Assembly: GCA_963836235.1 (NCBI GenBank)
Contig: CAWIIP010000004.1
Location: 576,001-640,000 of the forward strand
DNA from: an uncultured Pseudomonadota bacterium
Lineage (GTDB): Bacteria > Oederibacteriota > Muellerivitia > Muellerivitales > Muellerivitaceae
Direction: 5' to 3'
Length of the DNA: 64,000 nt
Position 1 is the stretch's first letter, and every line of letters starts with the position of its first letter. The notes beneath the pieces are model-generated. The model ran no database searches, was not told the DNA's origin, and worked only from the letters and a program-made list of their open reading frames with translations. Below are positions 35,452-64,000 of the stretch, in pieces. The translations under genes and the position numbers were made by a program.

Positions 35452-38400
35452 ATGCGCCGCAACCCGAAAACCGACCGTCTCTTTTTCGCCGTTCTTTTAT
35501 TTTCAGCTTTATTCACTCCTTACATTCTTTTCGCCCAGGCCGCTCCCATTACGGTCAACAGTACCGACGGTGGCATTGTGGCGACCTCCTTCGCGACCGC
35601 CTTTAACGATATCAACGCCCAAAACGGTGGCGGGACTATACAACTCGGTATTTCCAATGGCAGTTCCATCGTAGAAAGCCTTCAATGGGCCCCCGTTACG
35701 CAAAACCTCACTCTCTTGGGCCCCATCACCATCGAAACGGCGGGGAATAATTTAAATGGGGAAAGTTTCCTTAGCTTCACTAACCTGACCCTTGGGCCTG
35801 GCCTTAATTTCACCTTCTCCAACATTGATCCTTCCACCAATGGCAATCCCCAAAACGTCAACAGTGACGGCGCCTATCTCACTTTGAACAACTTGACCCT
35901 TCAGAATGGGTCGGCCTTCGGCGTAACCTTCGTTCAGGGCGCAACGGGCCAAACCCAAAACACGGGGGCCTATGGTGGTGACGCCTGGTTGACGGTGGGG
36001 GGGAACGTGATCATGGGGCAAAATACCGCCCTTTACGACATCGCCGGGCAAGGTGGAGCGGGCGGGTTGAACGGTGGGACCGGAGGCAATGGTGGTAACG
36101 CGGGCGTGAGTATCGGGATGATCGCAGAGGGCGCAGGCAGCTCGGTGAGCTTTTCCGCAGGGAGCGGCGGTGCTGGGGCTTCCGGAGCGGGAGCGGACAA
36201 CGGCGGCAATGCGGGCTCGGTGGCCGTCACCTTGGGTTCCTTGAACATGACCGGTTCCACTTTTCTAGCGGCGGGCGGCACCGGTGGAAGCGGCGGCACC
36301 GGACCGGACGGTAATTCGCCCTCCGGCACCAACGGCAATTCCGGAGGCTCCGCGAATCCAGGAGGGAACGGTGGAAACGGCGGGAACGCTTCCGTGACAT
36401 TGTCGGGTTCCGTTACGGGTGCGGGCGCGGGAGTGACTTTAGAAGTCATCAGCGGCGCGGGCGGCATCGGCGGCCAAGGCGGGGGCGGCGGAAACGGGGA
36501 TTCGGGCGACGGGCCGCTTAACGCCCATCCTGGTTCTCCCGGCGGCAACGGCGGTGGCGCGGGCGCGGGTGGGAACGGGGGCTCGGGCGGCAACGCCAGT
36601 TTGACCGCTTCTTTCATTAATGTTAATTCCAATAATTCCTATTTTCTCGTCCAAGGCGGCGATGGCGGAAACGGGGGCCAGGGTGGCAACGGTGGCTCGG
36701 GAGGGATCGGCGGCGGCGGCAGCGGCAACAGTGGAGGGTCCGGCGGTAGCGCCACCGGCGGCGCGTCGGGTGGAGAGGGCGGCGAGGGTGGTAACGCCAG
36801 TTTGACGGCTTCTTCCGTCACCGTGGATTCCAGCAATGTTACTTTCCTGGTCCAAGGCGGCAATGGCGGCGACGGCGGCGACGGTGGGGCTGGAGGCTCG
36901 GGTGGGCCGGGCGGCAACGGCAGTGACGGAAGCGGGGGAATTCATAACGGTACACCGGGCGGCTTGGGTGGCAATGGCGCCGACGGCGGGATGGGTGGAT
37001 ATGGAGCTCAGGCCGGAAACGCTTCGGTCAGTTTGGGATCTTTAACCCTGACGGGTTCAAACGACAGTTTCTCCGTGATCGGGGGCAATGGCGGCAATGC
37101 CGCACCAAGCGGCAACGGCGGAAACGCGGCCTCGGGCGGGTCGGGAGGCAACGCCGAAAATGAAACCACCGAAGACGGCGGTTATTCGGCGAATGCCGGT
37201 ACCGCGGGCAGCGGCGGCAACGGCCAGGCTGGCGGCAACGGCGGCAGCGCCTTAGTCACCATCGGGTCCATTACCCTGGGTTCGGCGGGGGTCACCACTG
37301 ATACCCTTTTCAGCGTTGCGGGGGGGGAACGGCGGATCCGATGGAAATGCCGGGCAGGGTGGGGAGGGTTTAGTCTCCGGGGGGAACGCGGGAGAGAACG
37401 GCAATACCGCAGACAATGGCTTTTTGGGCGGCAACGCCGGTAACGCAGGGGCCGGGGGAAACGTGCAGGGTGACGGCGCCTATGGCTTGGGGGGGAATGC
37501 CTCGGTGGTTTCCTCGGCGACGACCCTTTACGCGGGAGCCCAATTTGACGTCCAAGGCGGCAACGGAGGAGTGGCCAGCACCCTGGTCGGCGGCGCGACG
37601 GAAATGGTCAGCGGCGGCAACGGCGGCAGTTCCGGCACGGGTGGTACCGGTGGTTACGGGGGGGCGGTTGAGGGAGCCCAAACGGGCGGCAATGCCGGCA
37701 ATGGAGGATCGGTCCAAAACGGGGCAGCGGGTGGGCTGGGAAGCGCGGGTGGAAACGCTGGCGTTTCCATCGGAAACTTGTGGATGGATTCATCGGTTAC
37801 TTTCAGCGTCATCGGCGGCGATGGCGGTTGGGGCGGTACCGGTGGGTCGGGCGGTTATGGCGGCACCGGTGGGGGCGGGAGCCAGGGATATAACGCCGGG
37901 GGCGCGGCGGCCGGAGTCAACGGGGCTTCCGGGGGATTAGGCGGCAACGGCGGCAACGGCGGTTCGGCGGAAGCGACGATAGGCCAATTCATCCTGGGAG
38001 ATGCCTCCTCTTTCACTTTGCGGGGCGGCCTCGGGGGAAGCGGCGGCGGCGGCGGTAACGGCGGTAATGGCGGCGGCGGTGGTAACGGCGGTAATGCGTT
38101 TGGAACTTTTGGTCAGGCTACGGCGGGATCCTGGGGTGGCGATGGCGGCACCGGCGGGGGCGGGGGTGACGGGGGCAACGGCGGCGACGCGGCTTTAACC
38201 GTTTCGGGGCTTCTCTCCCTCTCTAAGGGGGATGGGCTGATGGTATTGGGTGGCGACGGCGGCGGAGGTGGTAACGGGAAAAACGGCGGTATTGGGGGCA
38301 ACGGCGGCAACGGGGGAAACACCCCAGGCGATTTCACCGGTGCCGCCGGCGGTAACGGTGGCAGCGGGGGTTACGCCGGAGCGGGTGGTTTTGGCGGCAA

Positions 38401-41400
38401 TGGCGGGAACGCCTCTGTTTCCGCGCTGTCCTTGATCATGGCCAATGGAGGAGCCACTTTTCTTATCCAAGGCGGTGACGGCGGCGGCGGTGGCGCGGGC
38501 GGATTGGGCGGCGATGGAGGCCAGGCGGGAGCAGGTGGTGGAAGCAATAGCGGCGTGGGAGGTTCGGGCGCGAACGGAGGATCGGGAACCGCTCCAGCGG
38601 CCGGCATAACGGCCGGTTTCGGAGGTTTCGGAGGTTTCGGAGGCGCGGCTGGAAGCGCAGACTTGGCCCTGGGTTCCGCTTCCGTTGGAGTCGGCGACCT
38701 TTTGGCCGTGGTCGGCGGCACTGGAGGCAGTGGCGGTGTTGGGGGGATCGGCGTGACCGCCGCCAATGGCGGCAATGGGCCCGGAGACAACAGCAATGGC
38801 GGCAACGGCGGTACGGGTGGTTCGGGAGGGATGGGCGGTTTTGGGGGAATACCCACCGTCCTTTCCAATGGACAAACCATCATCCTTTCCGGAGGGGATG
38901 CCGCCCTTTCCGTGGCGGGTGCGCTGGATTTAGCCTCCGGGGCAGCGGTGAGCGTTGCGGGCGGCACGGGGGGCAATGCCAGTACGGGAGGAAACGCTGG
39001 TCCCGGCGGCAATGGGGGCAATTCGGGGAATAACGACATTACGGGAATCCCTTACGGCTCCGGCGGCTCCGGCGGTGCGGGTGGTGCCGGTGGGGTTGGG
39101 GGAATAGGGGGCGCCGGTGGAAGCGCCGCAGTGACCGTGGGTTCGATCCAAATGGCCGCGGGTGCCACTTTCACCATTGCGGGCGGCGTGGGCGGTGGGG
39201 GCGGAAACAGCGGCATTGGCGGCGCAGGGGGGCTCGAGGGTGGAAGCAGCACTCCCCCAACCGACAGCGGATTGGGATCCCAATGGTATGGCCCTATGCT
39301 TTCTTTCCTTTTAAACGCCGCCTCCACGGGTTACGGCATCGGGGACGCAAGCGCTATCGAAGCGGGCCTCCAAGTGGCCGCGAATTTGGCCTTGAACAGT
39401 ACTAATAACAGTAACAACCCCAATATTCCCCCGGGACCCGGGGCCGCGGGTCAACTCCTAGGTGGAGGATTTGGGGGCGATGGCGGCTCGGCTTTTCTGG
39501 CGGTCACCACCCTTGATGCCTCCTCCAATGATCTCCTGTCGGTTCTGGGCGGGGCGGGCGCGATCGGCGGTTCGGGCGCGGACGGCGGCACGGTTACGAT
39601 CAGCGGCACCGTTTACACCGCCATGCAGGGGCCCGGGGGAGGCGGAGGAAACGGCGGCGCGGCTGGGGTGAGCATCGAAGGTCTTCAGCTCGGCGCAGGG
39701 TCGGTTCTTAGCGTGGCGGGCGGGGTCGGGGGCGACGGGGCAGCCGGTTTTAAGAATGTCAACGGAAGCAGCGGGCTGGGCGGGGGGGAGGCACCGGCGG
39801 CGACGTGGATGTAACCATTGGATCATCCCTCTTGACCAACGCCGGCTTATGGGTGACTTCGGGCCAGGGCGGCGATGGCGGTTCCGCCGGCAACGGCGGC
39901 ATGGGCGGGAACGCACAGGTCATATTGGGTTCCTTGGCTGCATCCTCAGGCTCAACCATCCAGGCCGCCGGGGGTCAGGGAGGCAACGGGTTCACCGTGG
40001 GCAGCGGGGCCGACGGAGGCGGAGCCCTTTTCCAATCCGGGGCCGTCACTCTTTCCTCATCGGCTTTGCAAATATTGGGTGGTAATGGCGGGGACGCCAC
40101 CCAGAACCTGGGCGGGATCAACGGCGGAAACGGGGGAGTCGCTTCGGCCACCCTGGAATCCCTCATGGCCGATTCCAATTCTTCCCTTTGGGTTGTGGGC
40201 GGGTCGGGTGGAACGGCCTACCAGGAAAGCACGGGTGGTACGGGCGGCATCGGCGCTGGGGCCACCCTGGTGGTGACGGGAAACCTTGACTCCAGTGGTT
40301 CGGTCAGCGTGGCGGGCGGGAATGGAAATATCAGCGGCGGCACCACTATCGGCAGCGCTGGCGGCACGGGCTTCTTGGATGTAGGGGGTGAGGAAAACGT
40401 CGGTGGCGCGGTAATCGTGGAAGGGGGCGCCGGTGGAGCGGGTGGCGGTGGAACACCTGTCAGCTTGCAAGGCGGTTCCGGTGGAAACGGTGGAAGGGCC
40501 CTAGTCAATGTGGGGTCCATGGTGATGCTCCAGCAGGGGAGCTTGAATGTCATTGGAAACGCCGGAGGCGCGGGAGTTTCCGGAAGCACCGGAGGCACCG
40601 GGGGTTCGGCGGACTTTCGGCCGGTTCGGTGAGCCTCACGGCTTCCGGCCTTGCCATTACCCTCCAGGGCGGCCAAGGCGGGATCGGTGGGGATGGAACC
40701 CATAACGGAAGCGTGACGATCGCCCCCGCGGCTGGGGGCCAGGGAGGTAACGCGCAGGCAACTTTGGGGTCCCTTTTTATGTCCGCCGGGGACAGACTCT
40801 TTGTAGAGGCCGGCTCGGGGAACATAGGAGGCTTGGGGAATAATACCGGTTATTTGGACGCCGTGCCGGGAGCTAACGGAAACGCGAGCGTCTCGATTGG
40901 TTCTTTGAACGGGTCGGGAACCGTGACGATGTGGGGAAACAACCTTTCGCTTCAGGTGCAGAGCGGCTATTTCAGCGGGGTGATCGCGGGCAATGAGGTT
41001 ATTGAAGTCGGCGGCGGGGCGCTGACTTTAGCCGGTGCCAATACTTATAGCGGCGGAACCACGCTGGAAAACGGGATACTGGGTCTGGGGAACAACAACG
41101 CCCTGGGCACGGGCAACGTGATGGTTTTAGGCGGAACCTTGGCGGTCGTTTCGCCGTTGGCGGTGACGGTTGGAGGGAATTATACGCAAGCGGCCGGGGC
41201 GACCCTTCAACTGAATTTGACCGGCGCGGTTCCGGGCGGCTGGGACGGCCTAAGAGTGGCCGGTACGGCGGATTTGGGCGGGAACTTGCAATTGGTTTCC
41301 GGCAACGGGGCAATCTTCCAGGCCCATGGCCTGGAGACCTTCTATATCTTGTCCGCGGGTACGACGGTCAGCGGGACTTTCGCCGGGCTGGTGGATGGGA

Positions 41401-42629
41401 TTTCGGCTAATTCTGTGTCGCTGGTTTACCAATCCAACAATGAAGTGCTGTTGGAGTTAACGGGCCCGAGCTTCCAATCTTTAGGTTCGACTTCCAACCA
41501 GCAGGCGCTGGGCGGGGCACTCGACGAGCTAAACAAGAAAGGGGGCAACCCGAACCTGTTAGGCGCGCTGGATACGGCGGTGAACGCGTCGCTTCCGGGA
41601 ATCTATAATCAAATCTCGCCCGCTAATTTGACCCCCCTGTACCAGATGGGCTTTGCCACCGCCCAAGCCGAGGCGGGAATGGTAAACCAAAGATTGTTCC
41701 AATTGTTCGGTAACCCCGGGTCCGAATCCAACGACCTTTCCTGGAACGGGGAGGGTCCCCGGTTCGCGGCCAACGTACCGGCTTCCCAAGAAGCGGGAAT
41801 GGCCCGGGACCTTCAGCCCCAGCATTGGAGCGCATTCGTCAACGGCATGGGGAATTTCGGCACCATCACTGGCGACTCAAACGCACCAGGCTACCAATAT
41901 TCCATCGGCGGCATGACTGCCGGCCTGGATTACCGCTTCTCTAAAAACTTGGCTGGCGGATTGCTGTTCGGATACAGCCAGTCGGGCACCAGCCAATCCA
42001 CCGGTACAGTGAACGCGACGGGAGGGCAAGTGGGACTTTACGGAGGATTAAAAGAAGGACAGCTACATCTGGAAGCCTTGGCCGAGGGCGGAGTCAACAA
42101 CTACACCACCCAACGCGACGCCCTGGGCGGCACGGCAACGGGAAGCACCCGGGGTCAGATGGTTTCGGTCCAGCTGGGCGCCGGTTACGATTGGAAAGTG
42201 GATCAATTGAAGGTGGGGCCCTTTGCCTCAGGCCAGTACACGAATGTGAATATCAACGCTTTCAACGAATCAGGTTCCATGGCGCCATTGAGTTTCGGAG
42301 CGCAGGGTGAAGGCTATTTGACCAGCGACCTGGGGGCGGCGGCCAGCCGCAACTGGGATTTGGGCGGCATCCGCTTATCACCCTCCCTCAGCGTGGCCTG
42401 GGAGCATGTGTACCAGGGCAACCTGGACAGCCTGGACGCCAGCCTGGGCGGCGGGGGCAACTTCACCGTAAGCGGCCCGCAAACGGGAACCAACGCGGCG
42501 GTAATCGGGGCCGGGCTAAACGCCGGGTTCGCGAAGGGCCTGAACGCCTTTGTCCAATACCAGGGCAAGGTGGGCCTAGCCGACTACGCGGAACAAAATC
42601 TCTCAGGCGGTATCAACGTCGGGTTTTAA
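35452..42629 (+). pseudogene. Type Va autotransporter with a very large Gly-rich (GGNGG) passenger, ~2392 aa when repaired; split into four ORFs by three homopolymer indels
   Basis: Signal peptide; GGxGG tracts alternating with beta-strands; GALTLAGANTYSGGTTLENG passenger repeat; barrel ending GGINVGF. Extra G near 37321, missing G near 39782 and missing T near 40616; repair gives 7179 nt in frame. Confidence 0.85.
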
Positions 42630-54385: not shown

Positions 54386-57300
54386 ATGAAAGTGTTGAAA
54401 AGTACTATTTTTTCAACGATGTCCAAATTTCCTTTTTTCCCTTCCGGTTTAAAACACATTTGCGCCCTTTTTCTTTTCATCACAGTGTTTTTTGGATTTA
54501 GTGCATATTCGCTCGCCGCCGTATCTTTATGGCAGTCTCTGCCGTTGATCACGCAGTCGAGCCTGAGCGCGGGGAATAGTGGTGGGGAAGGCTGCCAGGT
54601 GATCCAAAATTTCGCGATCGACACCACGGGCCAATTCCTCATGATGGGAACCGATGTGGGTGGGATATTTCGAAGTATTGATGGGGGGGTCAGCTGGCAG
54701 CCCGCCGATACGGGATTTACCCCCCGGGGAGCCTGCGCTTTTGCCATTGATCCCAACAATTCCAACCGGGTGCTGGCGGTGGGGGACAACTCCGCCGCCC
54801 AGCCCTGGAACGGCCTCTGGCTCTCTACCGACCAGGCTTCTTCCTGGACACCGGTTCAGGAAGAAAACTTCCAGGGTTCGGGAACCTATCATGATTCAGC
54901 CGCTTTTGACGCCTCCAGCGTGACGGTGTCGGGTGGAGTGACCTTCAGCGCCGTGGCCTATTGGGTGAATTACTCGGACGGGGGTGGTGGACTGTGGAAA
55001 TCCACTAACGGCGGCAATAGCTGGAGCAAGATCCAAACCGCCTATTCGGATGGTATCGTCAAAGTCAACCCTTCCAGCGGGGCAGTGTACGTGGCCACGG
55101 CCAACGGCTTCTATGTCGGCACCCCCGGGGGATCGAGCTTTACTCAAGTCGTTACCGGTCCGGTGCTGGGATTGGATGTCATCGCCACCCAGCCGAATAA
55201 CGTCTACATCAACGAAGCTAACGGTGTCTATGTTTCCACGAATTCAGGGCAAAGCTTCACCGAAATGGGCAACACCGGACTGCCTACCAGCGCTTCTCCG
55301 GGATTACGTAACCTCAAGGTTAGCCCGGTAAATCCGAACAATATGCTCATCGACGAGGATATGGGGACCTATACCTCCCAAAATTATTACTATTCCTCCA
55401 ATGGTGGTAACAACTGGTCGGCTTGCGCGCTTAACTCTGCCCAAAGCTTTGTCCCACTCAATACCCGGGAATGGCTCTTTGTTTGGAGCCCTACCAACGC
55501 CAACCAGGCCTGGACTTGTGGAGGGGATTTCATCAGCCAAACAACCAATGGAGGAGCTAATTTCGCCTGGTCCAGCAATGGGTACAACGACTTTACCTGC
55601 ACGGGTATTTTTAACTTCAATACCCAAAATCCCAACCTGCTTTTGGTCACCAGCCAGGACTACAACTCGGCCTTTACCGGGGCGGTTACCAACAGCGCAG
55701 TCACATGGGAATATTTGAATGTTTCCGGGCTAGGATGGGGAGGATTCAATTACGGGGGTTACGCATTGAGTTCCACGGTGATGGTGGCCGGTAACTCGGT
55801 GGCTTGGGGGGCGCCCGCTACCCTGATGGTTTCCACCAATGGGGGGAGTAGCTTCACCAGCACAGGATTGGTGGGCAACAATACCCAGACGGCTTGTGGG
55901 GACCCGGTTAGTGCCACGGTGGCTTTTTGGGACAATTACCGCACTATCGATGGAGGAAGCACCTGGCAGGCGATGACCAATTGCGGGGGTGTTTTTACCT
56001 ATGATTCGAACCCCGCAGGGGCTCATGAGCTATATGGGGCTAATGGTTCCATGGTGGTGAAATCCATAGATCATGGGGCTACCTGGACCAACGTGGTGAC
56101 GGTATCGGGAACGGTAGCGGACTTGGCCTATGATTGGAGCGACAACCGGCTCTATATCGTTTCAGGAAGCTCGTTGTTGGAATACAACGGGACATCTACG
56201 ACGAACCTCTCGGGAGTGCTGGCGGCTGACAACGAGGGGAACCAGAGTGTAGTCTCGGTGGCGGTGGACCCGGTAAATCCCACCATTGTTTATGCGGCCT
56301 GGAACGGTGGAAGTTATATGTCAAACCAGGCTATTCGCTATTCGGTGAACGCGGGAGCGACCTGGAGCACGCTGACCAAACAGCCGGGCGACACGGGGAT
56401 GGATGGAGGCAGAGAGTCGGCCTGTGTGAGGGTCAACCCGTTGACCCGCTACCTTTATTCCACCGGGAGCTGTTTTGGGGTCTGGAAATACCCGCCCCCG
56501 GTTTCCGGGTCGCCGACTCCCAGCGCTACACCAACACCCACCAACTTAGGTGGTTTTACCTCTACACTCACACCGACGCATACACCGACTTCTACTGCAA
56601 CGATCACCGGGACAGGTACTCCAACGAAGACACCGGTTGCCACGGCTACTTCGACGCCAAGCCGGACTCCAACTCCCACGATGTCCTGGACTGGAACTAT
56701 GACAGTAATGGGCACTCCGACGGTCACTTTTACGGCGACCAAAAGTTTTACATCTACTTCCACAATTTCTTCCAAGGTTACTTCTATACCACCGACATCT
56801 TCCTTTACTTTTACCAGGACTTTTACTCCTACTGTGACGGTTACGGCAACCAAAACATTGACCTACACGGCTACCTCGACGAACAGTTCAACCCCAACAT
56901 CTACTGCGCCTGGGTTGGCGGCCACATTAACGCCCACCCGAACCTTTACTCCAACTTCAACGTTTACAACGATTCGGACCTCAACACCATCCTTTACAAA
57001 CACTCCGACGGCAACCCAAACCGGTATATTTACTCAAACTCCTTTATTAGCGACCTCTACCTTTTCTCCGACTCAGATCGCAACAACTGTTTTGAGCCCA
57101 AGTTCAACGGCCACTCCAGGAGAAACCTCTGAGGGTTCGGGTGTAATTGGGATTCCCATACCTTATCCAAATCCGGTTACAACCGAAAACGAAATTCGTG
57201 TAAAGCTGAATTTTGGACAACAGGAAGGAACCAGCCGATTAATCCTTATGACAAGCGCTTTCCGAAAAATAAGTGAAGTTTCATTAGGAAATGTAATGCC

Positions 57301-57427
57301 GGGAGAGATGACGGTTGTTATTCCGTTGATTGACAAATCTGGGGAACAGTTGGCCAATGGGGTTTATTACGTGGCGGTAATAACTCTAAAAGGAACGACG
57401 GTTGGAAAATTACTGATTTTGCGGTGA
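54386..57427 (+). CDS. Secreted BNR/Asp-box beta-propeller (GH74/sortilin-like) with Thr-Pro stalk and T9SS-like C-terminal domain
   Basis: GTDVGGIFRSIDGGVSW; repeated S-x-(D/N)-G-G-x-(S/T)-W; PYPNP..LANGVYY..GKLLILR. Confidence 0.82.
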   Translation: MKVLKSTIFSTMSKFPFFPSGLKHICALFLFITVFFGFSAYSLAAVSLWQSLPLITQSSLSAGNSGGEGCQVIQNFAIDTTGQFLMMGTDVGGIFRSIDGGVSWQPADTGFTPRGACAFAIDPNNSNRVLAVGDNSAAQPWNGLWLSTDQASSWTPVQEENFQGSGTYHDSAAFDASSVTVSGGVTFSAVAYWVNYSDGGGGLWKSTNGGNSWSKIQTAYSDGIVKVNPSSGAVYVATANGFYVGTPGGSSFTQVVTGPVLGLDVIATQPNNVYINEANGVYVSTNSGQSFTEMGNTGLPTSASPGLRNLKVSPVNPNNMLIDEDMGTYTSQNYYYSSNGGNNWSACALNSAQSFVPLNTREWLFVWSPTNANQAWTCGGDFISQTTNGGANFAWSSNGYNDFTCTGIFNFNTQNPNLLLVTSQDYNSAFTGAVTNSAVTWEYLNVSGLGWGGFNYGGYALSSTVMVAGNSVAWGAPATLMVSTNGGSSFTSTGLVGNNTQTACGDPVSATVAFWDNYRTIDGGSTWQAMTNCGGVFTYDSNPAGAHELYGANGSMVVKSIDHGATWTNVVTVSGTVADLAYDWSDNRLYIVSGSSLLEYNGTSTTNLSGVLAADNEGNQSVVSVAVDPVNPTIVYAAWNGGSYMSNQAIRYSVNAGATWSTLTKQPGDTGMDGGRESACVRVNPLTRYLYSTGSCFGVWKYPPPVSGSPTPSATPTPTNLGGFTSTLTPTHTPTSTATITGTGTPTKTPVATATSTPSRTPTPTMSWTGTMTVMGTPTVTFTATKSFTSTSTISSKVTSIPPTSSFTFTRTFTPTVTVTATKTLTYTATSTNSSTPTSTAPGLAATLTPTRTFTPTSTFTTIRTSTPSFTNTPTATQTGIFTQTPLLATSTFSPTQIATTVLSPSSTATPGETSEGSGVIGIPIPYPNPVTTENEIRVKLNFGQQEGTSRLILMTSAFRKISEVSLGNVMPGEMTVVIPLIDKSGEQLANGVYYVAVITLKGTTVGKLLILR

Positions 57428-57562: not shown

Positions 57563-59575
57563 TTAGGGATAAGTTACCGTAAGTTTGGGATAAGGCGTTT
57601 TAAGTGACGTAACCTGCGAGGTGGGTACTTGGTTGTTTGATATGTTCAAAACGGATCCAGTGGCTTTAAGCCCTGGGACGGGTGTACTAATAAGATTGCT
57701 AATGGAAGTGATGGCATTGTTGGACAAATCGAGAGTGAGGGCAGTTGCAAGGGTCCCAAGCCCCGGTAAAGCGGGAACAGCTCCGCTGAGGCTGTCGTAT
57801 TCAAAAATGACATCTTGCGCGCTGGTCCAGCCCGATATCGGAGAGATGTTCGAAATAGGGTTGCTGCTCAAGTCGGCCGTTTGAAGCTGAGTGAGGGCGG
57901 TTGTGCTAGAAATATCCGTAATCCCCCTGTTGCCGGCATCAAGCAACTGTAAATTGGTCAATTTGTTCAAAACCGTTACACCGCCTACGAATCCGCCATT
58001 TTCAAGCGTTCCACCATCACCGTACATATAAAGGCTCTGGAGATTGCTTAAGGGTGCCAAGGGCGCAAGGCTGGTAACGGGTTGGGCTGAAAATTCAAGT
58101 TCGGTAAGATTGGTCAAGGTCGACACTGGTCCAAGATTAGTGAGTGCCCCAGGAAAAAAGACATCGCCTTCCGCCGTGCCTGACCTTATCTCAAGTCCTT
58201 GAAGACTTTTGATTCCCGACAGGGGTGAAAGATCACTCAAGGTATTGTTGTAATCCACATCCAGGAAGATTAGGTTGCCTGTAACCGATAAAGGTTCAAG
58301 GGGTGTCAAGTCGGTGATGTTGTTGCTTTCCAAATAGAGATTAACGAGGTTTGTGCAATTTTGCAGGCCTTGCAAGCTAGTAATGGGACCCAAAATAGTC
58401 ACGTAATGCCCATCCCCACGTGCGATTAAAGAGTTGTTATTGGCCACTAATTCTGTAAGTCCGGTTAGAGAAACCTTGTTGATAGTAATTGTGGCGTTGG
58501 GAGTGGCCGTTTCCAGAGTCTCGAGGACTGCTTGATAGAGATTGGGGTCGGGAATGATGCTGGTTTGTGTCGGAGTTCCCGTGACCGTGGGTGTTGCGGA
58601 AGAGGTGCCGACCGTTGCGGTAGCCGTATTTGTGGAAGTATTGGTCGGGGTCGAACTGACAGTAGTTGTAGGGGAGGCGGTAGAAGTATTAGTTGAGGTC
58701 AAGCTGGAAGTGATACTTGGAGAAGGTGTTGAAGTTGCACTGGGGAGCGGGCTCTTTGTATTAGTAGGAGTAAAGGTTGGGGTTGAACTCGGAGTGAATG
58801 TAGGAGAATCAGTAAAGGTGGTTGTGAAAGAGTAGGTTGGAGTGCCTGTAGGCGTTGAACTGAAAGTGCTGGTGGGAGAGGGGGTTAGAGTCGAGCTGGG
58901 CAAAGGGCTATTAGTGTTTGATGGGGTAAAAGTGGATGTTGAAGTTGGGGTGTTTGTTTGCGAGAGGGTTGGCGTGTCTGTGGGGGTTGAACTAAAAGTG
59001 GTGGTGAGGGAAGGGGTTGGAGTCGAGGTGGGCAAAGGACTATTTGTGTCTGAAGGGGTAAAAGTGGGTGTTGGACTTGGTGTGTCAGTGGGAGAGTAGG
59101 TTCGGGTGCTTGTGGATGTCGAAGTGAAAGTGGCGGTGAGGGAAGGGGTTGGAGTCAAACTCGGAAAGGGACTATCCGTGTCCGTAGGGGTGAAAGTTGG
59201 CGTCTGACTTGAGGTGGGTGTGAGGGATTCGGTTGGTGTATCGGTAGTCGTTGAACTGGAAGTGCTGCTTGGAGAAGACGTTAGTGTTGCACTGGGAAAA
59301 GGGGTATTTGTGCCAGTAAACATAAAAGTAGGTGTTGAACTTGTGGTAAATACCGGAGTTTCGGTTTGGGTGCCAGAAGGAGTTGATGTTGTGGTGAAAG
59401 TAGTCGTTTGTGATGTGGATTGAGTCGGGCTGGGTGTGTCAGGTGAAGAAGTTGAAGTTGGTTCGCCACTGTTACTGTCTGGGGATGTGGGGTTTTTCTT
59501 TGAGCCGCAACCAGAGTAAAAAACCGAGGTGAATAGCAATAAAATAATAATCCAAGTTTTGTCGAGGTTAGCCAT
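57563..59575 (-). CDS. Lipoprotein with Thr/Ser/Pro stalk and internalin-like LRR domain
   Basis: Lipobox YSGC; IPDPNL cap; ITSLQGLQNCTNLVNLYLESNNITDLTPL. Confidence 0.85.
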   Translation of the reverse strand: MANLDKTWIIILLLFTSVFYSGCGSKKNPTSPDSNSGEPTSTSSPDTPSPTQSTSQTTTFTTTSTPSGTQTETPVFTTSSTPTFMFTGTNTPFPSATLTSSPSSTSSSTTTDTPTESLTPTSSQTPTFTPTDTDSPFPSLTPTPSLTATFTSTSTSTRTYSPTDTPSPTPTFTPSDTNSPLPTSTPTPSLTTTFSSTPTDTPTLSQTNTPTSTSTFTPSNTNSPLPSSTLTPSPTSTFSSTPTGTPTYSFTTTFTDSPTFTPSSTPTFTPTNTKSPLPSATSTPSPSITSSLTSTNTSTASPTTTVSSTPTNTSTNTATATVGTSSATPTVTGTPTQTSIIPDPNLYQAVLETLETATPNATITINKVSLTGLTELVANNNSLIARGDGHYVTILGPITSLQGLQNCTNLVNLYLESNNITDLTPLEPLSVTGNLIFLDVDYNNTLSDLSPLSGIKSLQGLEIRSGTAEGDVFFPGALTNLGPVSTLTNLTELEFSAQPVTSLAPLAPLSNLQSLYMYGDGGTLENGGFVGGVTVLNKLTNLQLLDAGNRGITDISSTTALTQLQTADLSSNPISNISPISGWTSAQDVIFEYDSLSGAVPALPGLGTLATALTLDLSNNAITSISNLISTPVPGLKATGSVLNISNNQVPTSQVTSLKTPYPKLTVTYP

Positions 59576-59651
59576 GAGCCCCTAAAATAAGATTCAAAAA
59601 ACGAAAAAAATATCCCGAAAAAGTGGGTCGTTTTTTTTCCTTATCTTTTAA

Positions 59652-61175
59652 TCAGGGATAAGTTACTGAAAGATTTGGATAAGTTGTCTGAATAGCCGTA
59701 GCTTGTGCGGTAGGCACGTGGTTGCCTGATATGTTCAATACAGATCCAGCAGTATTGAACCCTGGCACGGGAGTGCTAATCAGATTTGAAATGTCGGCTA
59801 TGACATTGTGTGACACATCCAGATTTGCGGGTGCGGTTGAGGTTCCAAATCCCGGGAGGGCCGGAACCGGGTTTACATTATTGTTATATTCCAAAGTTAC
59901 GCCTTGGGCACTGGGCCAAGTCCCCACAACCGTAAAATCAGAAATGGAATTATGCGATAAATTGACTGTTTGCAGAGAGGCGAGGGACGCGGCGCTGGAG
60001 ATGTCCGTGATCCCCCTTGCGCTGGCATCAAGTAATAGCAAGTATTTGAAATTGCTCAAAACAGTAACACCTCCAGTGAAAGGGGGATCTCCGGTTACAC
60101 CGTACATATAGAGGTATTGGAGGTTAAACATATTTGCCAAGGGCGCAAGACTAGTGACGGGCTGACCTGAAATTTCGACCTCGGTTATGGAGGTGAGCGG
60201 CGCTAACGGTAACAAGCTGGTTATCGACCCAAGGGAGTCACCCCCAATGTATGAACCTGACCTGGCCTCAAAGTTTTGAAGATTGTATAAGCCGGACAGG
60301 GGTGTGAGATCGCTAAGATTGTTGTTGTAATCCAAATGAAGACCTATGAGGCCAACGAGTTGTGAGACTGGACTCAAGTCGGTGATATCGTTGGCTTCCA
60401 AATAAAGGGCAAAAAGACTGCCGGAGCAATTTTGCAGGCCTTGCAAGCTCGTGATGGGGCCCGAAATAGATACATAGCCGGAATATCCCCGGGTATTACC
60501 TGGGTCGTTATCCGCTACCAATTTTGTCAGTCCAGCCATAGAAGCCTGGGTGACTGTAACGGGGCCTGGTGTGAGTGTTTCCAGAGTCTCAAAGACGGCT
60601 TGGTAGAGATTGGGATCGGGAATGATAGGGGTTTGAGTAGGGGTTGAAGTGACCGTTGATGAGGCAGTGGTGGTTGCCGTGGAAGAGGGGGTCGAGGTGA
60701 TAGTATTTGTTGCTGTATCAGTAGGCGTGGAGGATACAGTGTTTGTTCCTGTTGTCGTTGGAGTGTCAGTAATGGTTGGAGAGGGTGTGGACGTTGCGGT
60801 AAAAATAAACGTGGTCGTAGAAGTTGAAGTTGGGGTGGAAGTAGGGGTATCGGTTGGATCGTTTGTGGGGGTTGGAGACGAAGTGAATGTTGCGGTGGAA
60901 GTGGGAGAAGAGGTAGGGCTGGCTATTGAAGTGTTGGTGCTGGTGGAAGAAGGTGTGGAAGTTGCCGTGGAAGTGGTGGTAGAGGTAGGGCTGAAAACCG
61001 AAGTTTTAGTGCTGGTTGTGGAAGGAGTGGAGGTTACCGTGGAAGTCGGGGCACTTCCACCACTGTTATTATTTGAGGGAGAAGATGGATTGTTTTTCCC
61101 CGGACAACCTAATGTTAAAAAGGTAAACCCGGTCAAAAGTGAAAAAACCCATACAACGCGATAAGAAATCATCAT
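59652..61175 (-). CDS. Lipoprotein with Thr/Ser/Pro stalk and internalin-like LRR domain
   Basis: Lipobox TLGC; IPDPNL; LRRs paralogous to neighbours; ends SVTYP. Confidence 0.85.
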   Translation of the reverse strand: MMISYRVVWVFSLLTGFTFLTLGCPGKNNPSSPSNNNSGGSAPTSTVTSTPSTTSTKTSVFSPTSTTTSTATSTPSSTSTNTSIASPTSSPTSTATFTSSPTPTNDPTDTPTSTPTSTSTTTFIFTATSTPSPTITDTPTTTGTNTVSSTPTDTATNTITSTPSSTATTTASSTVTSTPTQTPIIPDPNLYQAVFETLETLTPGPVTVTQASMAGLTKLVADNDPGNTRGYSGYVSISGPITSLQGLQNCSGSLFALYLEANDITDLSPVSQLVGLIGLHLDYNNNLSDLTPLSGLYNLQNFEARSGSYIGGDSLGSITSLLPLAPLTSITEVEISGQPVTSLAPLANMFNLQYLYMYGVTGDPPFTGGVTVLSNFKYLLLLDASARGITDISSAASLASLQTVNLSHNSISDFTVVGTWPSAQGVTLEYNNNVNPVPALPGFGTSTAPANLDVSHNVIADISNLISTPVPGFNTAGSVLNISGNHVPTAQATAIQTTYPNLSVTYP

Positions 61176-61210
61176 CTCCCCCTCAAAAAATAAATAATAA
61201 AACCTTTAAA

Positions 61211-62986
61211 TCAAGGCCCGGTTATTACAAGGTGTGAATAAGTTGACTGTAGGGTTGGTTTCTGTGCTGTTAGTCCCGTGTCATTTGTAATGATAAAGCT
61301 TGAGCCCCCGGTATAGGTAAAGCCGGGAACACTATTGGGGAGGGTGTAAAGATTGACCATGCTGTTGATAGTGTTGTTTGACAAGTCGAGATAAAGCTTA
61401 GCGGACGAAATGCCTAGACTATTCAAGGCTGGAATCGAAGGAATTGTGACGCTGTTGAATTCTATGATCACGCTTACGGCACTGCTCCAAGACCCTATCG
61501 GTGAAATGTCAACAATGCTGTTGTTGCTCAAATCTGTAACCTGCATTCCAGTGATGGAAGACAGGCTTGAAATAGAAGTGATCGCGTTAGAATCGGCATA
61601 TAGAGTATTCAGCGAGGGGAAATTAGTGCCAGTTAATACAGTGACTCCCTGAATGCTATTGCCCTGAATATTTAGGAAATTGAGACTAATGAGGCCTGTT
61701 AAGGCTGAGATGTCGGTTAATTTAGGGCTGATGTTTCCAAGACCAAGGTGTTGAAGGCCGTTCAACCCAGTTAACGCTGACACCGAAGTAATACCGGTAT
61801 TATTAAGTAAAAGAACCTGAAGTTTAGTTAGGTTGGACAAAGGGGCAATGTTTGTTACGCCAGCATTTCCGCCCAGGTCAACAGTCGTAAGATTGGTAAG
61901 ACCGGCGATCGGGGTCAAGTCGGTAATGGAATTGCTTTCCATAATGAGGTTGGTAAGGCTTGTGCAATATTGTAATCCTTGCAAGCTTGTTACCCCGGCG
62001 CTATTCACGGTGAGTCCAAAGGGGGAGTCGAGAGCGTTTAAATCAGCAACTGTAATAGTTGTGGGGACGCTGATTCCCTGGGCAATCAACTCAGCTTTAA
62101 CCGATGAGTAGAGGTTTGGATCTGGGATTAGTAATGTGGGAGTGGATGTGACTGTAGGAGAAGCAGTTGATGTTGGCGTTGAAGTGATAGTGTTTGTGGC
62201 AGTTTTGGTGGCAGTTGAAGTAACAGTTGAGGATGCTGTGTTTGTTCCAGTAGCAGTTGGGCTGGAAGTCGGAGTGGAGGTTGCAGTTTTCGTTGAAGTA
62301 CCCGTCACGGTTGAGGAAGGTGTTAATGTTGCGGTATTGGCGAAAGTATTTGTGGGTGTCTGAGTTGGAGTTGAAGAAGGTGTGTTAGTAGTGGTTGAAG
62401 TAGTAGTAAAAGTTGGGCTGTTAGTTGGCGTGTCGGTGAAGATGGGTGTGTTAGTAGTGGTTGAAGTAGTAGTAAAGGTTGGACTATCAGTTGGCGTGTC
62501 GGTGAAGATAGGAGTGTTGGTAATAGTAGAAGTAGTGGTAGAGGTTGGGCTGTTAGTTGGAGTGTCGGTGGAGATAGGGGTGTTGGTAGTAGTAGAAGTA
62601 GTAGTGGAGGTTGGACTGTCAGTTGGAGTGTCGGTGGCGATAGGGGTGTTGGTGGTGGTAGAAGTGGTAGTGAAGGTTGGACTATCAGTTGGAGTATTGC
62701 TGAAAAGAGGCGTGTTGGTGATGGTTTGAGAAGGAGTGGATGTTACAGATAAAGTGGATGTGGTGGAACTGGTAGAAGTAGGCGTGGATGTTAGAGTGAA
62801 AACGGGGGTTTTGGTTACAGTTGAAGTAGGGGTAGAAGTTGAAGTGGAGGAACTAGTGGGGTTTTGCCCACCACCGTTAGTATTGGATGAGGGCGAAGTT
62901 GGATTGTTTTTCCCAGGACAACCGATCATTAAAAATGTAATTCCCATCAAGAGTGTAAAAATCCAAATGTTGCGATTCGAAATCAT
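61211..62986 (-). CDS. Lipoprotein with Thr/Ser/Pro stalk (22-aa repeats) and internalin-like LRR domain
   Basis: Lipobox MIGC; start moved to ATG 62986; IPDPNL; LRRs such as ITDLTPIAGLTNLTTVDL. Confidence 0.85.
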   Translation of the reverse strand: MISNRNIWIFTLLMGITFLMIGCPGKNNPTSPSSNTNGGGQNPTSSSTSTSTPTSTVTKTPVFTLTSTPTSTSSTTSTLSVTSTPSQTITNTPLFSNTPTDSPTFTTTSTTTNTPIATDTPTDSPTSTTTSTTTNTPISTDTPTNSPTSTTTSTITNTPIFTDTPTDSPTFTTTSTTTNTPIFTDTPTNSPTFTTTSTTTNTPSSTPTQTPTNTFANTATLTPSSTVTGTSTKTATSTPTSSPTATGTNTASSTVTSTATKTATNTITSTPTSTASPTVTSTPTLLIPDPNLYSSVKAELIAQGISVPTTITVADLNALDSPFGLTVNSAGVTSLQGLQYCTSLTNLIMESNSITDLTPIAGLTNLTTVDLGGNAGVTNIAPLSNLTKLQVLLLNNTGITSVSALTGLNGLQHLGLGNISPKLTDISALTGLISLNFLNIQGNSIQGVTVLTGTNFPSLNTLYADSNAITSISSLSSITGMQVTDLSNNSIVDISPIGSWSSAVSVIIEFNSVTIPSIPALNSLGISSAKLYLDLSNNTINSMVNLYTLPNSVPGFTYTGGSSFIITNDTGLTAQKPTLQSTYSHLVITGP

Positions 62987-63727: not shown

Positions 63728-64000
63728 ATGGGTTTTCAAAATAGTTTTTTTCTTTTTTTTCTTCTTTCCCTTGGAATAAGCATGATTCTTACCCCTGTCT
63801 TTATCGGGCTTGCGCCCCGGTTACGCCTTCTTGATCGTCCTGGCGGCAGAAAAATTCATCAAACACTTATTCCGCGGATAGGTGGACTCGTCATAGCTAT
63901 TTCAATTCTTTTTGTTGTTGTTATTGGTTTTGCCTTTTTGTCCTTGGCGCATTTTCCATCGGACCAAGTGGTGAAGTTGGGGATCATACTTTCGGGGACT
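63728..64000 (+). CDS. WecA/TagO/MraY-family phospho-sugar transferase, 5' part only (runs off the window)
   Basis: Manual translation MGFQNSFF..LTPVFIGLAPRLRLLDRPGGRKIHQTLIPRIGGLVI matches the DxPxxRKxHxxxxPxxGG motif. Confidence 0.85.
   Translation, partial: MGFQNSFFLFFLLSLGISMILTPVFIGLAPRLRLLDRPGGRKIHQTLIPRIGGLVIAISILFVVVIGFAFLSLAHFPSDQVVKLGIILSGT

What the first reader, a model, noticed from the sequence alone, without database searches (positions are those of the whole stretch)
57563..62986. Tandem trio of stalked internalin-like LRR lipoproteins
Seen: three co-oriented paralogs with lipobox, K(K/N)NP(T/S)SP after the Cys, stalks of different length (~310, ~160 and ~260 aa), an IPDPNL cap and diverged LRRs with variable inserted loops. 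Inference: a diversified family of surface receptors at graded heights; the conserved post-Cys motif may be a surface-export signal, parallel to the C-terminal-domain route.
Basis: partly seen in the sequence, partly recalled or inferred. Interest (0 to 1): 0.5.

Follow-up and report, generated by a model that had tools for sequence, protein, structure and literature searches.

The report
Three stalked LRR lipoprotein genes
Three neighbouring genes of an uncultured soil bacterium encode lipid-anchored proteins that hold an internalin-type binding domain on long threonine-rich stalks, and their shared start sequence belongs to a leader used by many unrelated stalked lipoproteins in this lineage, whose role in sorting is plausible but unproven.

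Summary
Three co-oriented minus-strand genes (57563-59575, 59652-61175, 61211-62986) each encode four parts:
- a lipobox signal peptide;
- Cys followed by GSKKNPTSP, PGKNNPSSP or PGKNNPTSP;
- a T/S/P stalk of 317, 160 or 263 residues built partly from tandem repeats;
- an IPDPNLY cap plus LRR domain whose profile and predicted fold match Listeria internalins best.

They are not internalin family members. They lack the inter-repeat domain and cell-wall anchor, and fall far below the family cut-offs.

The strict motif is not a general signal. It occurs 4 times in the genome, 3 of them in this trio, and in 3 of 99 genomes of the phylum.

It is, however, the sharpest form of a leader (…FL.IG-C-P-[GS]-K-x2-3-P-[ST]-x-P) shared by 13 lipoproteins. 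Relatives with looser motifs carry unrelated passenger domains. The leader is strongly tied to stalked lipoproteins and is expanded in a few genera of one family.

Stalks occur almost only in proteins with a lipobox or a C-terminal sorting tail, which fits two parallel display routes.

Surface exposure, glycosylation, ligand and "graded heights" are untested. An inner-membrane retention role for the lysine motif is not excluded.

The genes are a new member of known kinds, with a modest lead on lipoprotein sorting. The scan had not noted this before on other DNA.

The parts
61211..62986 (-). P-C gene (591 aa from the ATG at 62986; the open frame runs up to a GTG at 63043). First gene of the trio.
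62918..62986 (-). P-C signal peptide with lipobox LMIG-C (Cys23).
62888..62917 (-). P-C post-Cys tether start PGKNNPTSPS.
62129..62917 (-). P-C T/S/P stalk, 263 aa. It includes a 66-bp (22-aa) tandem repeat of 5.3 copies at 62372-62719.
61214..62128 (-). P-C IPDPNLY cap plus LRR domain. It is the most regular of the three and has a diverged concave face.
59652..61175 (-). P-B gene (507 aa).
61104..61175 (-). P-B signal peptide with lipobox LTLG-C (Cys24).
61074..61103 (-). P-B post-Cys tether start PGKNNPSSPS.
60624..61103 (-). P-B T/S/P stalk, 160 aa. It includes a 72-bp tandem repeat of 2.3 copies at 60882-61046.
59655..60623 (-). P-B cap plus LRR domain. Residues 165-507 were modelled (pLDDT 89.3).
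57563..59575 (-). P-A gene (670 aa). Last gene of the trio.
59507..59575 (-). P-A signal peptide with lipobox FYSG-C (Cys23).
59477..59506 (-). P-A post-Cys tether start GSKKNPTSPD. It has no Pro at +2.
58556..59506 (-). P-A T/S/P stalk, 317 aa. It includes a 132-bp (44-aa) tandem repeat of about 3.4 copies at 58816-59264.
57566..58555 (-). P-A cap plus LRR domain.

Best explanation
What they are. These are three tandemly duplicated, probably co-transcribed genes for lipid-anchored envelope proteins of a diderm bacterium. Earlier notes of this scan place it in candidate phylum FCPU426; I did not verify that name.

Processing (inferred from the standard pathway). Each precursor is exported by Sec. 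It is lipid-modified at the lipobox Cys and cleaved by signal peptidase II. It is N-acylated by Lnt and handed to the Lol pathway.

Architecture (shown). Directly after the lipid anchor comes a 160-317 residue Thr/Ser/Pro stalk. The stalk grows and shrinks by tandem repeats of 22-44 residues. It carries a C-terminal internalin-type cap plus LRR solenoid, which is the ligand-binding part.

Location (inferred, about 60%). I read them as cell-surface adhesin or receptor proteins on mucin-like spacers that are probably O-glycosylated. In this genome such stalks are nearly confined to two kinds of protein. One has an N-terminal lipobox, with the stalk right after the anchor. The other has a C-terminal sorting tail, with the stalk often right before it.

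Specificity. P-A and P-B keep a common Tyr-rich concave face and probably share a ligand class. P-C has a different face.

The motif. The K(K/N)NP(T/S)SP motif is the most conserved form of a lineage-specific leader cassette, h-region F.LL.G..FL.IG, then C-P-[GS]-K-x2-3-P-[ST]-x-P. Many unrelated stalked lipoproteins share it. I judge it about 50% likely to act in sorting or processing. Within that I put surface export at about 35% and inner-membrane retention at about 15%. Otherwise it is an inherited cassette with no signal role.
For: Architecture:
- ORFs, alignment and coordinates.
- SD-like sites at each ATG, with gaps of 35 and 76 bp between genes.

LRR domain:
- Pfam LRR_4 is significant in 3 of 3 proteins.
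- A family profile against PDB sequences gives InlF 4fmz (E 8.2e-73), InlA (3.4e-66) and InlH, InlC2 and InlB. The alignment covers the cap, with 'iPDPnLrlai' against 'ifPDADLAEGI'.
- The AlphaFold2 model has pLDDT 89.3 and pTM 0.86, with 12 parallel strands.
- Foldseek ranks InlF first (E 2.6e-13, TM 0.69/0.70), then InlA.

Envelope and lipoprotein machinery in the genome:
- Omp85/BamA 2 matches, LolA 1, LspA 2 and Lnt 1.

Stalk dynamics:
- Tandem repeats of 132 bp x3.4, 72 bp x2.3 and 66 bp x5.3.
- The same-genus genome has two such genes. One has a further domain inserted in the stalk.

Stalks mark anchored exported proteins:
- 129 of 2825 ORFs have a T/S/P-rich window.
- Of these, 81 carry the C-terminal tail and 30 a lipobox by crude regex (6 are in both counts). 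Of the 24 with neither, I judged most by eye to be missed tails or missed lipoboxes, P-A among them.
- T/S/P of 0.5 or more just before the tail occurs in 41 of 91 tail proteins against 10 of 1524 others.

Leader cassette:
- 13 lipoproteins have C-P-[GS]-K. All 13 have Gly at -1, against 66 of 123 other candidates.
- Of the wider set of 17 motif-bearing and looser-motif lipoproteins scanned, Pfam gave NHL (2), PD40, Kelch and ice-binding-like, and none for 12.
- Among 97 filtered candidates, stalked against unstalked gave Lys+4 in 12/18 against 8/79 and Pro+2 in 11/18 against 4/79. After collapsing near-identical paralogs these were 9/15 and 8/15, with p about 1e-4 to 1e-5.
- Lys makes up 7 of 1142 stalk residues beyond +13.
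- Conserved residues use different codons in different genes. That points to selection on the peptide rather than recent copying.

Other points:
- Two housekeeping-type lipoprotein candidates (Pal-like, BamD-like) have neither stalk nor cassette.
- Glycosylation capacity is large, with 34 PMT_2 GT-C matches, 27 over the cut-off.
- Concave face identity is P-A/P-B 31/50 and P-B/P-C 10/50.
Against: - No experiment or expression data exist. Lipidation, location, glycosylation and ligand are all inferred.
- The strict motif is genus-restricted and occurs only 4 times in the genome.
- The LRR homolog in another genus (G016) starts C-GSGNQNPASP, without Lys.
- P-A itself lacks Pro+2.
- The 'stalked' class was defined by composition. 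The Pro enrichment at +8 and +11 is therefore partly circular. The filters dropped P-A and P-B from that count.
- The lipoproteins sharing the cassette also share a similar h-region. Common descent of an N-terminal module is therefore a sufficient explanation.
- N-terminal and LRR similarities disagree: the N-terminus is closest between B and C, the LRR between A and B. This shows that module exchange happens.
- Degenerate DNA patterns exceed their controls outside the family too, by 1.7x against about 2x inside it.
- Only 13 of the 47 TIGR04183-detected tail proteins have the stalk directly before the tail. Stalks are also general interdomain linkers.
- Lys near the Cys has been proposed as a retention signal in Pseudomonas aeruginosa (PMC6469965, passages read).
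Confidence: 0.6

Rival explanations
1. The post-Cys sequence has no signal function. It is the start of a low-complexity linker within an N-terminal module (signal peptide plus tether start). Gene duplication and recombination in the repetitive stalks spread this module among genes. The trio are ordinary outer-membrane or surface LRR lipoproteins sorted by default rules.
For: - The cassette genes share a similar h-region as well as the motif.
- The paralogs are mosaics. The N-terminus of P-B is closest to P-C (68% aa, dS 0.68 over 34 codons), while its LRR is closest to P-A (58%).
- Domains are shuffled between stalk segments in the sister genome.
- The strict motif is genus-limited.
- The leader HMM is expanded only in some genera: G000 20, G001 14, G075 22 and G020 15, against 0-8 in the other 26 f1 genomes.
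- The motif degenerates with distance.
Against: - Lys+4 and Pro+2 stay fixed while the adjoining stalk is free to vary. Lys is otherwise almost absent from stalks, at 7 of 1142 residues.
- Synonymous codons differ at the conserved residues.
- Gly at -1 is invariant in 13 of 13.
- In every system studied, the residues just after the Cys are sorting determinants. This rests on passages of PMC6469965 and on the abstract and section 6 of PMC5080379.
Confidence: 0.4
2. The Lys-containing motif is a Lol-avoidance (inner-membrane retention) signal. The proteins stay anchored in the inner membrane, and the stalk and LRR domain lie in the periplasm.
For: - In P. aeruginosa, Lys at +3 and Ser at +4 were proposed as retention signals (PMC6469965, passages read).
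- Here Lys sits at +4, followed by N, S or T.
- No acidic Bacteroidota-type export signal is present (PMC5080379).
Against: - Stalks of 160-317 residues with internalin-type, NHL, Kelch and ice-binding-like passengers are typical of extracellular proteins.
- The same stalk type is otherwise found in proteins with a C-terminal secretion tail.
- The retention rule in Pseudomonas is itself weak. Lys+3 occurs in 5 and Ser+4 in 8 of 40 likely inner-membrane lipoproteins, according to the same paper.
Confidence: 0.15
3. The cassette marks substrates of a dedicated processing enzyme. One of the two tandem LspA paralogs would be specialised for G-C-P cleavage sites. Proline directly after the Cys may be a poor substrate for the ordinary enzyme.
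For: - There are two intact LspA genes in tandem, 52% identical, and both carry what I recall as the catalytic motifs.
- Among family f1 genomes with an LspA match, 22 of 25 have two or more. The copies lie in tandem wherever both were listed.
- Among the other 68 genomes, 8 have two matches, and none of those pairs is adjacent.
- Strong cassette matches are confined to family f1.
Against: - The co-occurrence amounts to one evolutionary event, so it carries little weight.
- The LspA duplication is family-wide, while the cassette is expanded in only a few genera.
- P-A lacks Pro+2.
- That Pro+2 hinders LspA is my conjecture and comes from no call.
Confidence: 0.1

Closest known systems
Listeria class 1 internalins (InlA, InlB, InlH, InlC2, InlF)
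   Same: Both have an N-terminal helical cap followed by 22-residue LRRs of the L..L..L.L..N.I.D(I/L)..L type. Internalins are the best sequence-profile and fold matches.
   Different: The trio has no inter-repeat Ig-like domain and no LPXTG or GW anchor. It is anchored by an N-terminal lipid through a long stalk, and it comes from a diderm soil bacterium. Several of its repeats are irregular and lack the Asn ladder. Scores against the family models are 41-91 bits, with cut-offs of 1050-1600.
Leptospira LRR lipoproteins (for example LIC10831, PDB 4u06)
   Same: Both are lipobox-anchored LRR proteins of a diderm and are considered surface adhesins. The literature was seen as listing and abstracts only (PMC8951592, PMC11629876).
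   Different: The sequence and fold match is weaker than to internalins (Foldseek rank 39, TM 0.40). I know of no long T/S/P stalk in them; that point is recalled and was not checked.
Bacteroidota surface lipoproteins with the lipoprotein export signal (LES)
   Same: Both have a short conserved sequence directly after the lipidated Cys that is specific to one class of lipoproteins, with Lys as the best-conserved residue. In Capnocytophaga canimorsus the consensus is Q-K-D-D-E at +2 to +6, with K at 72% (PMC5080379, abstract and section 6). The LES was discovered by the same kind of N-terminal alignment.
   Different: The LES needs acidic residues, K-(D/E)2 or Q-A-(D/E)2. Here the motif is P-[GS]-K-N-N-P-[ST]-S-P with no acidic residue. 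The class here is defined by composition, not by measured location. The Bacteroidota export route is the enlarged LptD translocon (preprint 10.64898/2026.10.03.756453, abstract only). I did not test for it here.
Borrelia surface lipoproteins with disordered N-terminal tethers, and mycobacterial O-mannosylated lipoproteins with Thr-rich N-termini
   Same: Both have a disordered, Thr-rich segment right after the lipid anchor that matters for display or protection. This is recalled and comes from no call.
   Different: Stalks here are ten times longer and repeat-built. Glycosylation here is only inferred from the 34 PMT_2 matches.
Type IX secretion cargo with a C-terminal domain (TIGR04183)
   Same: The same genome holds 47 TIGR04183 matches and 95 ORFs with the tail by regex. 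Many of them have the same T/S/P stalk next to the tail.
   Different: The trio has no such tail. The proteins end in the last LRR (…VTYP or …ITGP).

Membership tests
Bacterial lipoproteins (signal peptidase II substrates) | A positively charged n-region, a hydrophobic h-region and a lipobox ending in Cys at residues 15-35. | tested here: met
   The lipoboxes are FYSG-C23, LTLG-C24 and LMIG-C23. P-B and P-C pass the PROSITE-style pattern used. P-A does not appear in that call's list and was recognised only by eye, as FYSG-C after a hydrophobic stretch.
Bacterial lipoproteins (signal peptidase II substrates) | The modification and transport machinery is encoded in the genome. | tested here: met
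   LspA has 2 matches, Lnt 1, LolA 1 and Omp85 2. Lgt and LolCDE were not searched.
Bacterial lipoproteins (signal peptidase II substrates) | The N-terminal Cys is actually acylated. | not testable with these tools
   This needs mass spectrometry or palmitate labelling.
Listeria internalin family | An N-terminal cap plus 22-residue LRR solenoid. | tested here: met
   The profile aligns with both the cap and the LRR of InlF, InlA, InlH and InlB. The model and Foldseek agree.
Listeria internalin family | An Ig-like inter-repeat domain after the LRR. | tested here: not met
   The proteins end with the last LRR strand, at residues 339-341 of the 343 modelled.
Listeria internalin family | The score reaches the curated family cut-off. 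| tested here: not met
   The best score is InlH at 90.7 bits against a cut-off of 1050. InlA scores 64.5 against 1600.
Bacteroidota LES surface lipoproteins | K-(D/E)2 or Q-A-(D/E)2 within +2 to +6. | tested here: not met
   Positions +2 to +6 read GSKKN, PGKNN and PGKNN, with no D or E. The consensus is from PMC5080379.
Bacteroidota LES surface lipoproteins | Demonstrated surface exposure. | not testable with these tools
   There is no culture or proteomic data, and no RNA run was listed.
T9SS-type C-terminal-domain cargo | A C-terminal sorting domain (TIGR04183-like). | tested here: not met
   None of the 47 matches lies in C4:633563-638986, which is the trio. The trio's C-termini are LRR.
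Slam-dependent surface lipoproteins | A C-terminal beta-barrel domain recognised by Slam, with a Slam (DUF560) gene present. | tested here: inconclusive
   The model shows an LRR solenoid up to the C-terminus and no barrel. I did not search for Slam.

The most novel reading that the evidence does not exclude
The leader F.LL.G..FL.IG-C-P-[GS]-K-N-N-P-[ST]-S-P would be a new, non-acidic class of lipoprotein sorting signal in an uncultured phylum. It would route a dedicated set of mucin-like stalked lipoproteins to the cell surface, in parallel with the C-terminal-tail route. It may be read by the extra, family-specific LspA paralog or by another lineage-specific factor.
Probability: 0.15. Interest if true: 0.7.

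Novelty: new member of a known kind. Interest (0 to 1): 0.4.

Why it matters
How diderm bacteria place lipoproteins on their outer surface is solved only for a few lineages. Those are the Bacteroidota LES/LptD route, Slam, and Borrelia tethers.

This lineage has no cultured member that I know of. Its genome suggests a cell surface built from two mirror-image designs. One is anchor-stalk-domain, for lipoproteins. The other is domain-stalk-tail, for proteins with the C-terminal tail.

The lipoprotein class carries its own conserved leader. If that leader is a sorting signal, it would be a second, chemically different example of a post-Cys export code. It would also give a simple rule for predicting the surface proteome of these soil and peat bacteria.

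If it is not a signal, the trio is simply a good example of modular, repeat-driven evolution of surface adhesins.

Tried and rejected
- A word-indexed search of public proteins with residues 1-45 of P-B found nothing. There were 4 candidates and none scored. It says nothing about distribution.
- Degenerate DNA patterns for C-P-x-K-x2/3-P-x2-P were too noisy to use. Family f1 gave 151 and 150 matches against 78 and 67 control matches in 31 genomes. The other 68 genomes gave 84 and 93 against 50 and 54. I used the leader HMM instead.
- dN/dS on the concave face is not feasible. dS is saturated between the paralogs, at 1.4 to more than 3 or undefined. I compared identity by structural class instead.
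- Consensus promoter and terminator scans showed no excess. There were 6 promoter-like sites against 7.7 expected and 5 terminator-like sites against 6.0. Co-transcription therefore rests only on spacing and orientation.
- SprA_N (PF14349) gave no match, but no control genome rang either, so the result is uninformative.
- PorV (NF033710) gave 19 matches, none over the cut-off, with the best at 59.2 bits against 250. Whether a true type IX system is present stays open.
- No RNA holder was listed among public runs. There were 3 DNA runs from one study. I did not lay reads.
- The idea that a stalk always adjoins the anchor in tail proteins holds only in part. It is true for 13 of 47 TIGR04183 hits and 41 of 91 regex-tail proteins.
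- I made no complex-prediction job, because no partner is known.

Full report
**1. The observation**

The region holds three co-oriented minus-strand ORFs. I call them P-A (57563-59575, 670 aa), P-B (59652-61175, 507 aa) and P-C (61211-62986, 591 aa).

- The P-C frame stays open up to a GTG at 63043. The ATG at 62986 is preceded by GGGGGG, as the other two ATGs are by AGGGG and GAGGGGGAG.
- The gaps between genes are 35 and 76 bp.
- Whole-length identity to P-A is 53% (P-B) and 44% (P-C).
- Each protein starts with a signal peptide ending in a lipobox: FYSG-C23, LTLG-C24 and LMIG-C23. After the Cys come GSKKNPTSP, PGKNNPSSP and PGKNNPTSP.
- A Thr/Ser/Pro stalk of 317, 160 or 263 residues follows (T 36-42%, S 17-23%, P 12-16%).
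- Then come the invariant IPDPNLY and an LRR domain that runs to the C-terminus.
- The stalks contain tandem DNA repeats: 132 bp x3.4 in P-A, 72 bp x2.3 in P-B and 66 bp x5.3 at 86% match in P-C.

**2. The LRR domain**

- Pfam LRR_4 is significant in all three proteins.
- NCBIfam internalin models give partial hits far below their cut-offs. The best is InlH at 90.7 bits against 1050.
- I built a family alignment from the three domains, a same-genus homolog and four public relatives. Searched against PDB sequences, it gave Listeria internalins as the best matches: InlF 4fmz E 8.2e-73, InlA 3.4e-66, then InlH, InlC2 and InlB. These E-values are inflated by the repeats.
- The alignment includes the cap helix region.
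- The AlphaFold2 model of P-B residues 165-507 is confident (pLDDT 89.3, pTM 0.86). It shows a cap helix and 12 parallel strands.
- Foldseek ranks InlF first (E 2.6e-13, TM 0.69/0.70), followed by InlA.

There is no inter-repeat Ig-like domain, no cell-wall anchor and no C-terminal sorting tail. The domain is internalin-like, but the proteins are not members of the internalin family.

A full scan of 1.84 billion representatives gave 15,613 hits at E of 0.001 or less. Only four are single-stretch relatives of this particular domain: P0001 (78%), P0016 (45%), P0019 (51%) and P0021 (43%, with other domains in front). The rest are giant multi-LRR proteins.

**3. Relatives and dynamics**

- In 41 related genomes, most 'matches' to P-B are to the low-complexity stalk.
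- Clear LRR homologs are in the same-genus genome G001 (52-61% identity) and in G016 (43%).
- In G001 the locus has two genes. One has 968 aa with CPGKNNPTSPS, stalk, an extra domain, a second stalk and the LRR. The other starts CPGKNTPSSP and is split into two ORFs.
- The extra domain also occurs in the fourth strict-motif protein of this genome (C2:902629-904923).
- The paralogs are old. dS is saturated in the stalk and LRR.
- They are also mosaic. The N-terminus of P-B is closest to P-C (68% aa, dS 0.68 over 34 codons), but its LRR is closest to P-A (58% against 40%).
- I classed residues by their position in the repeat, using the model's strands. Concave-face residues are more conserved between P-A and P-B (31/50) than non-scaffold residues elsewhere (77/154). 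They are strongly diverged in P-C (10/50 against 54/143).

So there are two specificities rather than a generally hypervariable face.

**4. The post-Cys motif**

*The strict motif.*
- It occurs 4 times among 10,196 ORFs of 80 aa or more, always right after a lipobox Cys. Three of the four are the trio.
- Its back-translated DNA pattern is in 3 of 99 genomes of the phylum: G000 3, same-genus G001 3 and G005 1, with controls at 0.

*A looser form is real.*
- A crude predictor gave 177 candidates, many of them false. Of these, 21 have K-x1-4-P-[STA]-[STAG]-P within a few residues of the Cys.
- 13 start C-P-[GS]-K. All 13 have Gly at -1, against 66 of 123 other candidates. They share an h-region of the form F.LL.G..FL.IG.
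- I scanned 17 of these motif-bearing and looser-motif lipoproteins against Pfam. The results were NHL (2), PD40, Kelch and ice-binding-like, and none for 12. Only one of the five named proteins (an NHL protein) starts C-P-G-K. The other four have looser post-Cys motifs.

*Association with stalks.*
- The filters left 97 candidates. They dropped P-A and P-B, so only P-C of the trio is counted.
- The 18 candidates with T/S/P of 0.5 or more in their first 60 mature residues have Pro+2 in 11, Lys+4 in 12, Pro+8 in 11 and Pro+11 in 12.
- The 79 others have Pro+2 in 4 and Lys+4 in 8.
- After collapsing near-identical paralogs (9/15 and 8/15) the contrast remains, with Fisher p about 7e-5 and 2e-5.
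- Lys is otherwise 7 of 1142 stalk residues.
- The conserved residues use different codons in different genes.
- Two housekeeping-type lipoprotein candidates (Pal-like, BamD-like) have neither stalk nor cassette.

*Caveats.*
- The class is defined by composition, so the Pro enrichment is partly circular.
- The genes are not independent.
- Shared h-regions suggest a common N-terminal module.

*Distribution of the leader HMM (36 positions).*
- Matches per genome are G000 20, G001 14, G075 22, G020 15, G005 8, G008 7 and G012 7. The other 24 f1 genomes have 0-5.
- In all, 28 of 30 other f1 genomes have at least one match at E of 0.01 or less.
- Outside f1, 32 of 68 genomes have a match. Most are single and weak; the best is 2.0e-7.
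- Hits in other genera and families read C-PGKNSPSSP, C-PGNSPTSP, C-SGQKNPSSP, C-GSKSNPTAP, C-SKTTNPTSP and C-GSKDSPADP. These were picked by the model, so they show existence, not frequency.
- The G016 LRR homolog starts C-GSGNQNPASP, without Lys.

The cassette is thus a lineage-specific, degenerating feature expanded in a few genera.

**5. Context in the genome**

- The organism is a diderm with the usual lipoprotein pathway: Omp85 2 matches, LolA 1, Lnt 1 and LspA 2.
- It has 47 TIGR04183-type C-terminal domains. A regex for the tail (…G[LV]YY…GKLLVLR) finds 95 of 2825 non-shadow ORFs. One of these is the neighbouring gene at window 54386-57427, a BNR/sortilin-type propeller followed by a stalk and the tail.
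- T/S/P-rich windows occur in 129 of 2825 ORFs.
  - 81 have the tail and 30 a lipobox by crude regex (6 are in both counts).
  - Of the 24 with neither, I judged most by eye to be tail variants or lipoboxes the regex missed, P-A among them.
- T/S/P of 0.5 or more just before the tail is seen in 41 of 91 tail proteins, against 10 of 1524 other ORFs in the same window. Among the TIGR04183-detected set it is only 13 of 47.
- The genome also has 34 PMT_2 GT-C glycosyltransferase matches, 27 over the cut-off. This agrees with earlier notes of this scan on the same genome.

Taken together, stalks mark exported proteins that carry an anchor or sorting signal at one end. It does not show where the lipoproteins end up.

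**6. Mechanism**

- *Shown:* the gene structure, the lipobox, the stalk repeats, the internalin-type fold, the presence of the pathway genes and the class-specific leader.
- *Inferred from the standard pathway:* lipidation, cleavage, N-acylation and Lol transport.
- *Inferred from context (about 60%):* surface display on a probably O-glycosylated spacer.

At roughly 0.3 nm per residue for an extended mucin-like chain (a general figure, recalled), the stalks could span about 50, 80 and 95 nm. As random coils they would be far shorter, so 'graded heights' is not established. The ligand is unknown. P-A and P-B share a Tyr-rich face, and P-C differs.

**7. Comparison with the known**

- The closest fold is the Listeria internalins.
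- The closest design is the LRR lipoproteins of Leptospira (listing and abstracts; PDB 4u06 among the hits).
- The closest parallel for the motif is the Bacteroidota lipoprotein export signal. It was found by the same kind of alignment and has the consensus Q-K-D-D-E at +2 to +6, with K at 72% (PMC5080379, abstract and section 6). It requires acidic residues, which are absent here.
- Export in Bacteroidota goes through an enlarged LptD translocon (preprint 10.64898/2026.10.03.756453, abstract only).
- Lys at +3 and Ser at +4 were proposed as inner-membrane retention signals in P. aeruginosa, although they are infrequent there (PMC6469965, passages). The direction of any sorting role here is therefore open.
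- I searched the paper library for 'lipoprotein export signal' / 'surface lipoprotein', for 'FCPU426' and for LRR lipoproteins. I saw nothing on this motif or on lipoproteins of this phylum. The library is incomplete.

**8. Verdict**

The trio is a new member of known kinds: LRR lipoproteins and stalked surface proteins.

The lead worth keeping is the lineage-specific leader cassette, together with the tandem LspA duplication:
- 22 of 25 f1 genomes with a match have two or more copies, in tandem wherever both were listed.
- 8 of 68 other genomes have two matches, and none of those pairs is adjacent.
- Both copies in this genome are intact and 52% identical.

That co-occurrence is a single evolutionary event and weak evidence. 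The scan had not noted this feature before on other DNA.

Noticed in passing
G000 C2:279499-280418 (outside the window): Two intact signal peptidase II (LspA) genes lie in tandem. They are 52% identical. The duplication is shared by 22 of the 25 family-f1 genomes that have an LspA match. Among the other 68 genomes of the phylum, 8 have two matches, and none of those pairs is adjacent.
   Followed up: partly
window 54386-57427 (+), and about 95 ORFs genome-wide: The neighbouring gene encodes a BNR/sortilin-type propeller (partial match to the F510_1955 glycosylhydrolase family), a T/S/P stalk of about 250 aa, and a C-terminal tail …LANGVYYVAVITLKGTTVGKLLILR. A regex finds this tail in 95 of 2825 ORFs. 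TIGR04183 detects only 47 at E of 0.001 or less, so the lineage has a diverged variant of the C-terminal sorting domain.
   Followed up: partly
G000, for example C4:366783-367355, C2:1635417-1636256, C1:191974-192360, C4:923197-924847, C4:590289-590615, C4:670120-670887: There are 19 weak PorV-like (NF033710) matches, none over the cut-off. Several lie directly beside genes for tail-bearing or stalked proteins. This may be a partner barrel for the tail route. SprA_N was not found, but no control genome rang for it.
   Followed up: no
G000 C2:206086-206562 near C2:209785-210945; C2:1293526-1293996 near C2:1295978-1297354: The genome has 34 PMT_2 GT-C glycosyltransferase matches. At least two of them sit within about 3 kb of stalked-lipoprotein genes. 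Whether they glycosylate the stalks is untested.
   Followed up: no
G000 C2:919892-922674 (-) and C2:1723864-1726646 (+): A pair of cassette-lipoprotein genes (560 aa and 353 aa) is present twice, in inverted orientation and about 800 kb apart. The 560-aa copies look identical from their printed termini and their equal scores. The 353-aa copies are nearly identical. This looks like a recent inverted duplication of 2.8 kb or more.
   Followed up: no
L002/L019/L037 (G001:C30): The same-genus homolog of the locus has a 968-aa gene with an additional domain inserted between two stalk segments. The same domain occurs in G000 C2:902629-904923 and in motif-bearing proteins of G001 and G005. A second LRR gene there is split into two ORFs, by either a frameshift or an assembly error.
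   Followed up: partly
window 36001-42000: G+C is 0.61-0.67 here, against 0.40-0.58 in the rest of the window.
   Followed up: no
window 63728-64000 (+): An open-ended ORF starts with a multi-pass membrane N-terminus containing …LDRPGGRKIH…IPRIGG…. By eye it resembles polyprenyl-phosphate sugar-phosphate transferases of the WecA/MraY type. This is recalled and was not tested.
   Followed up: no
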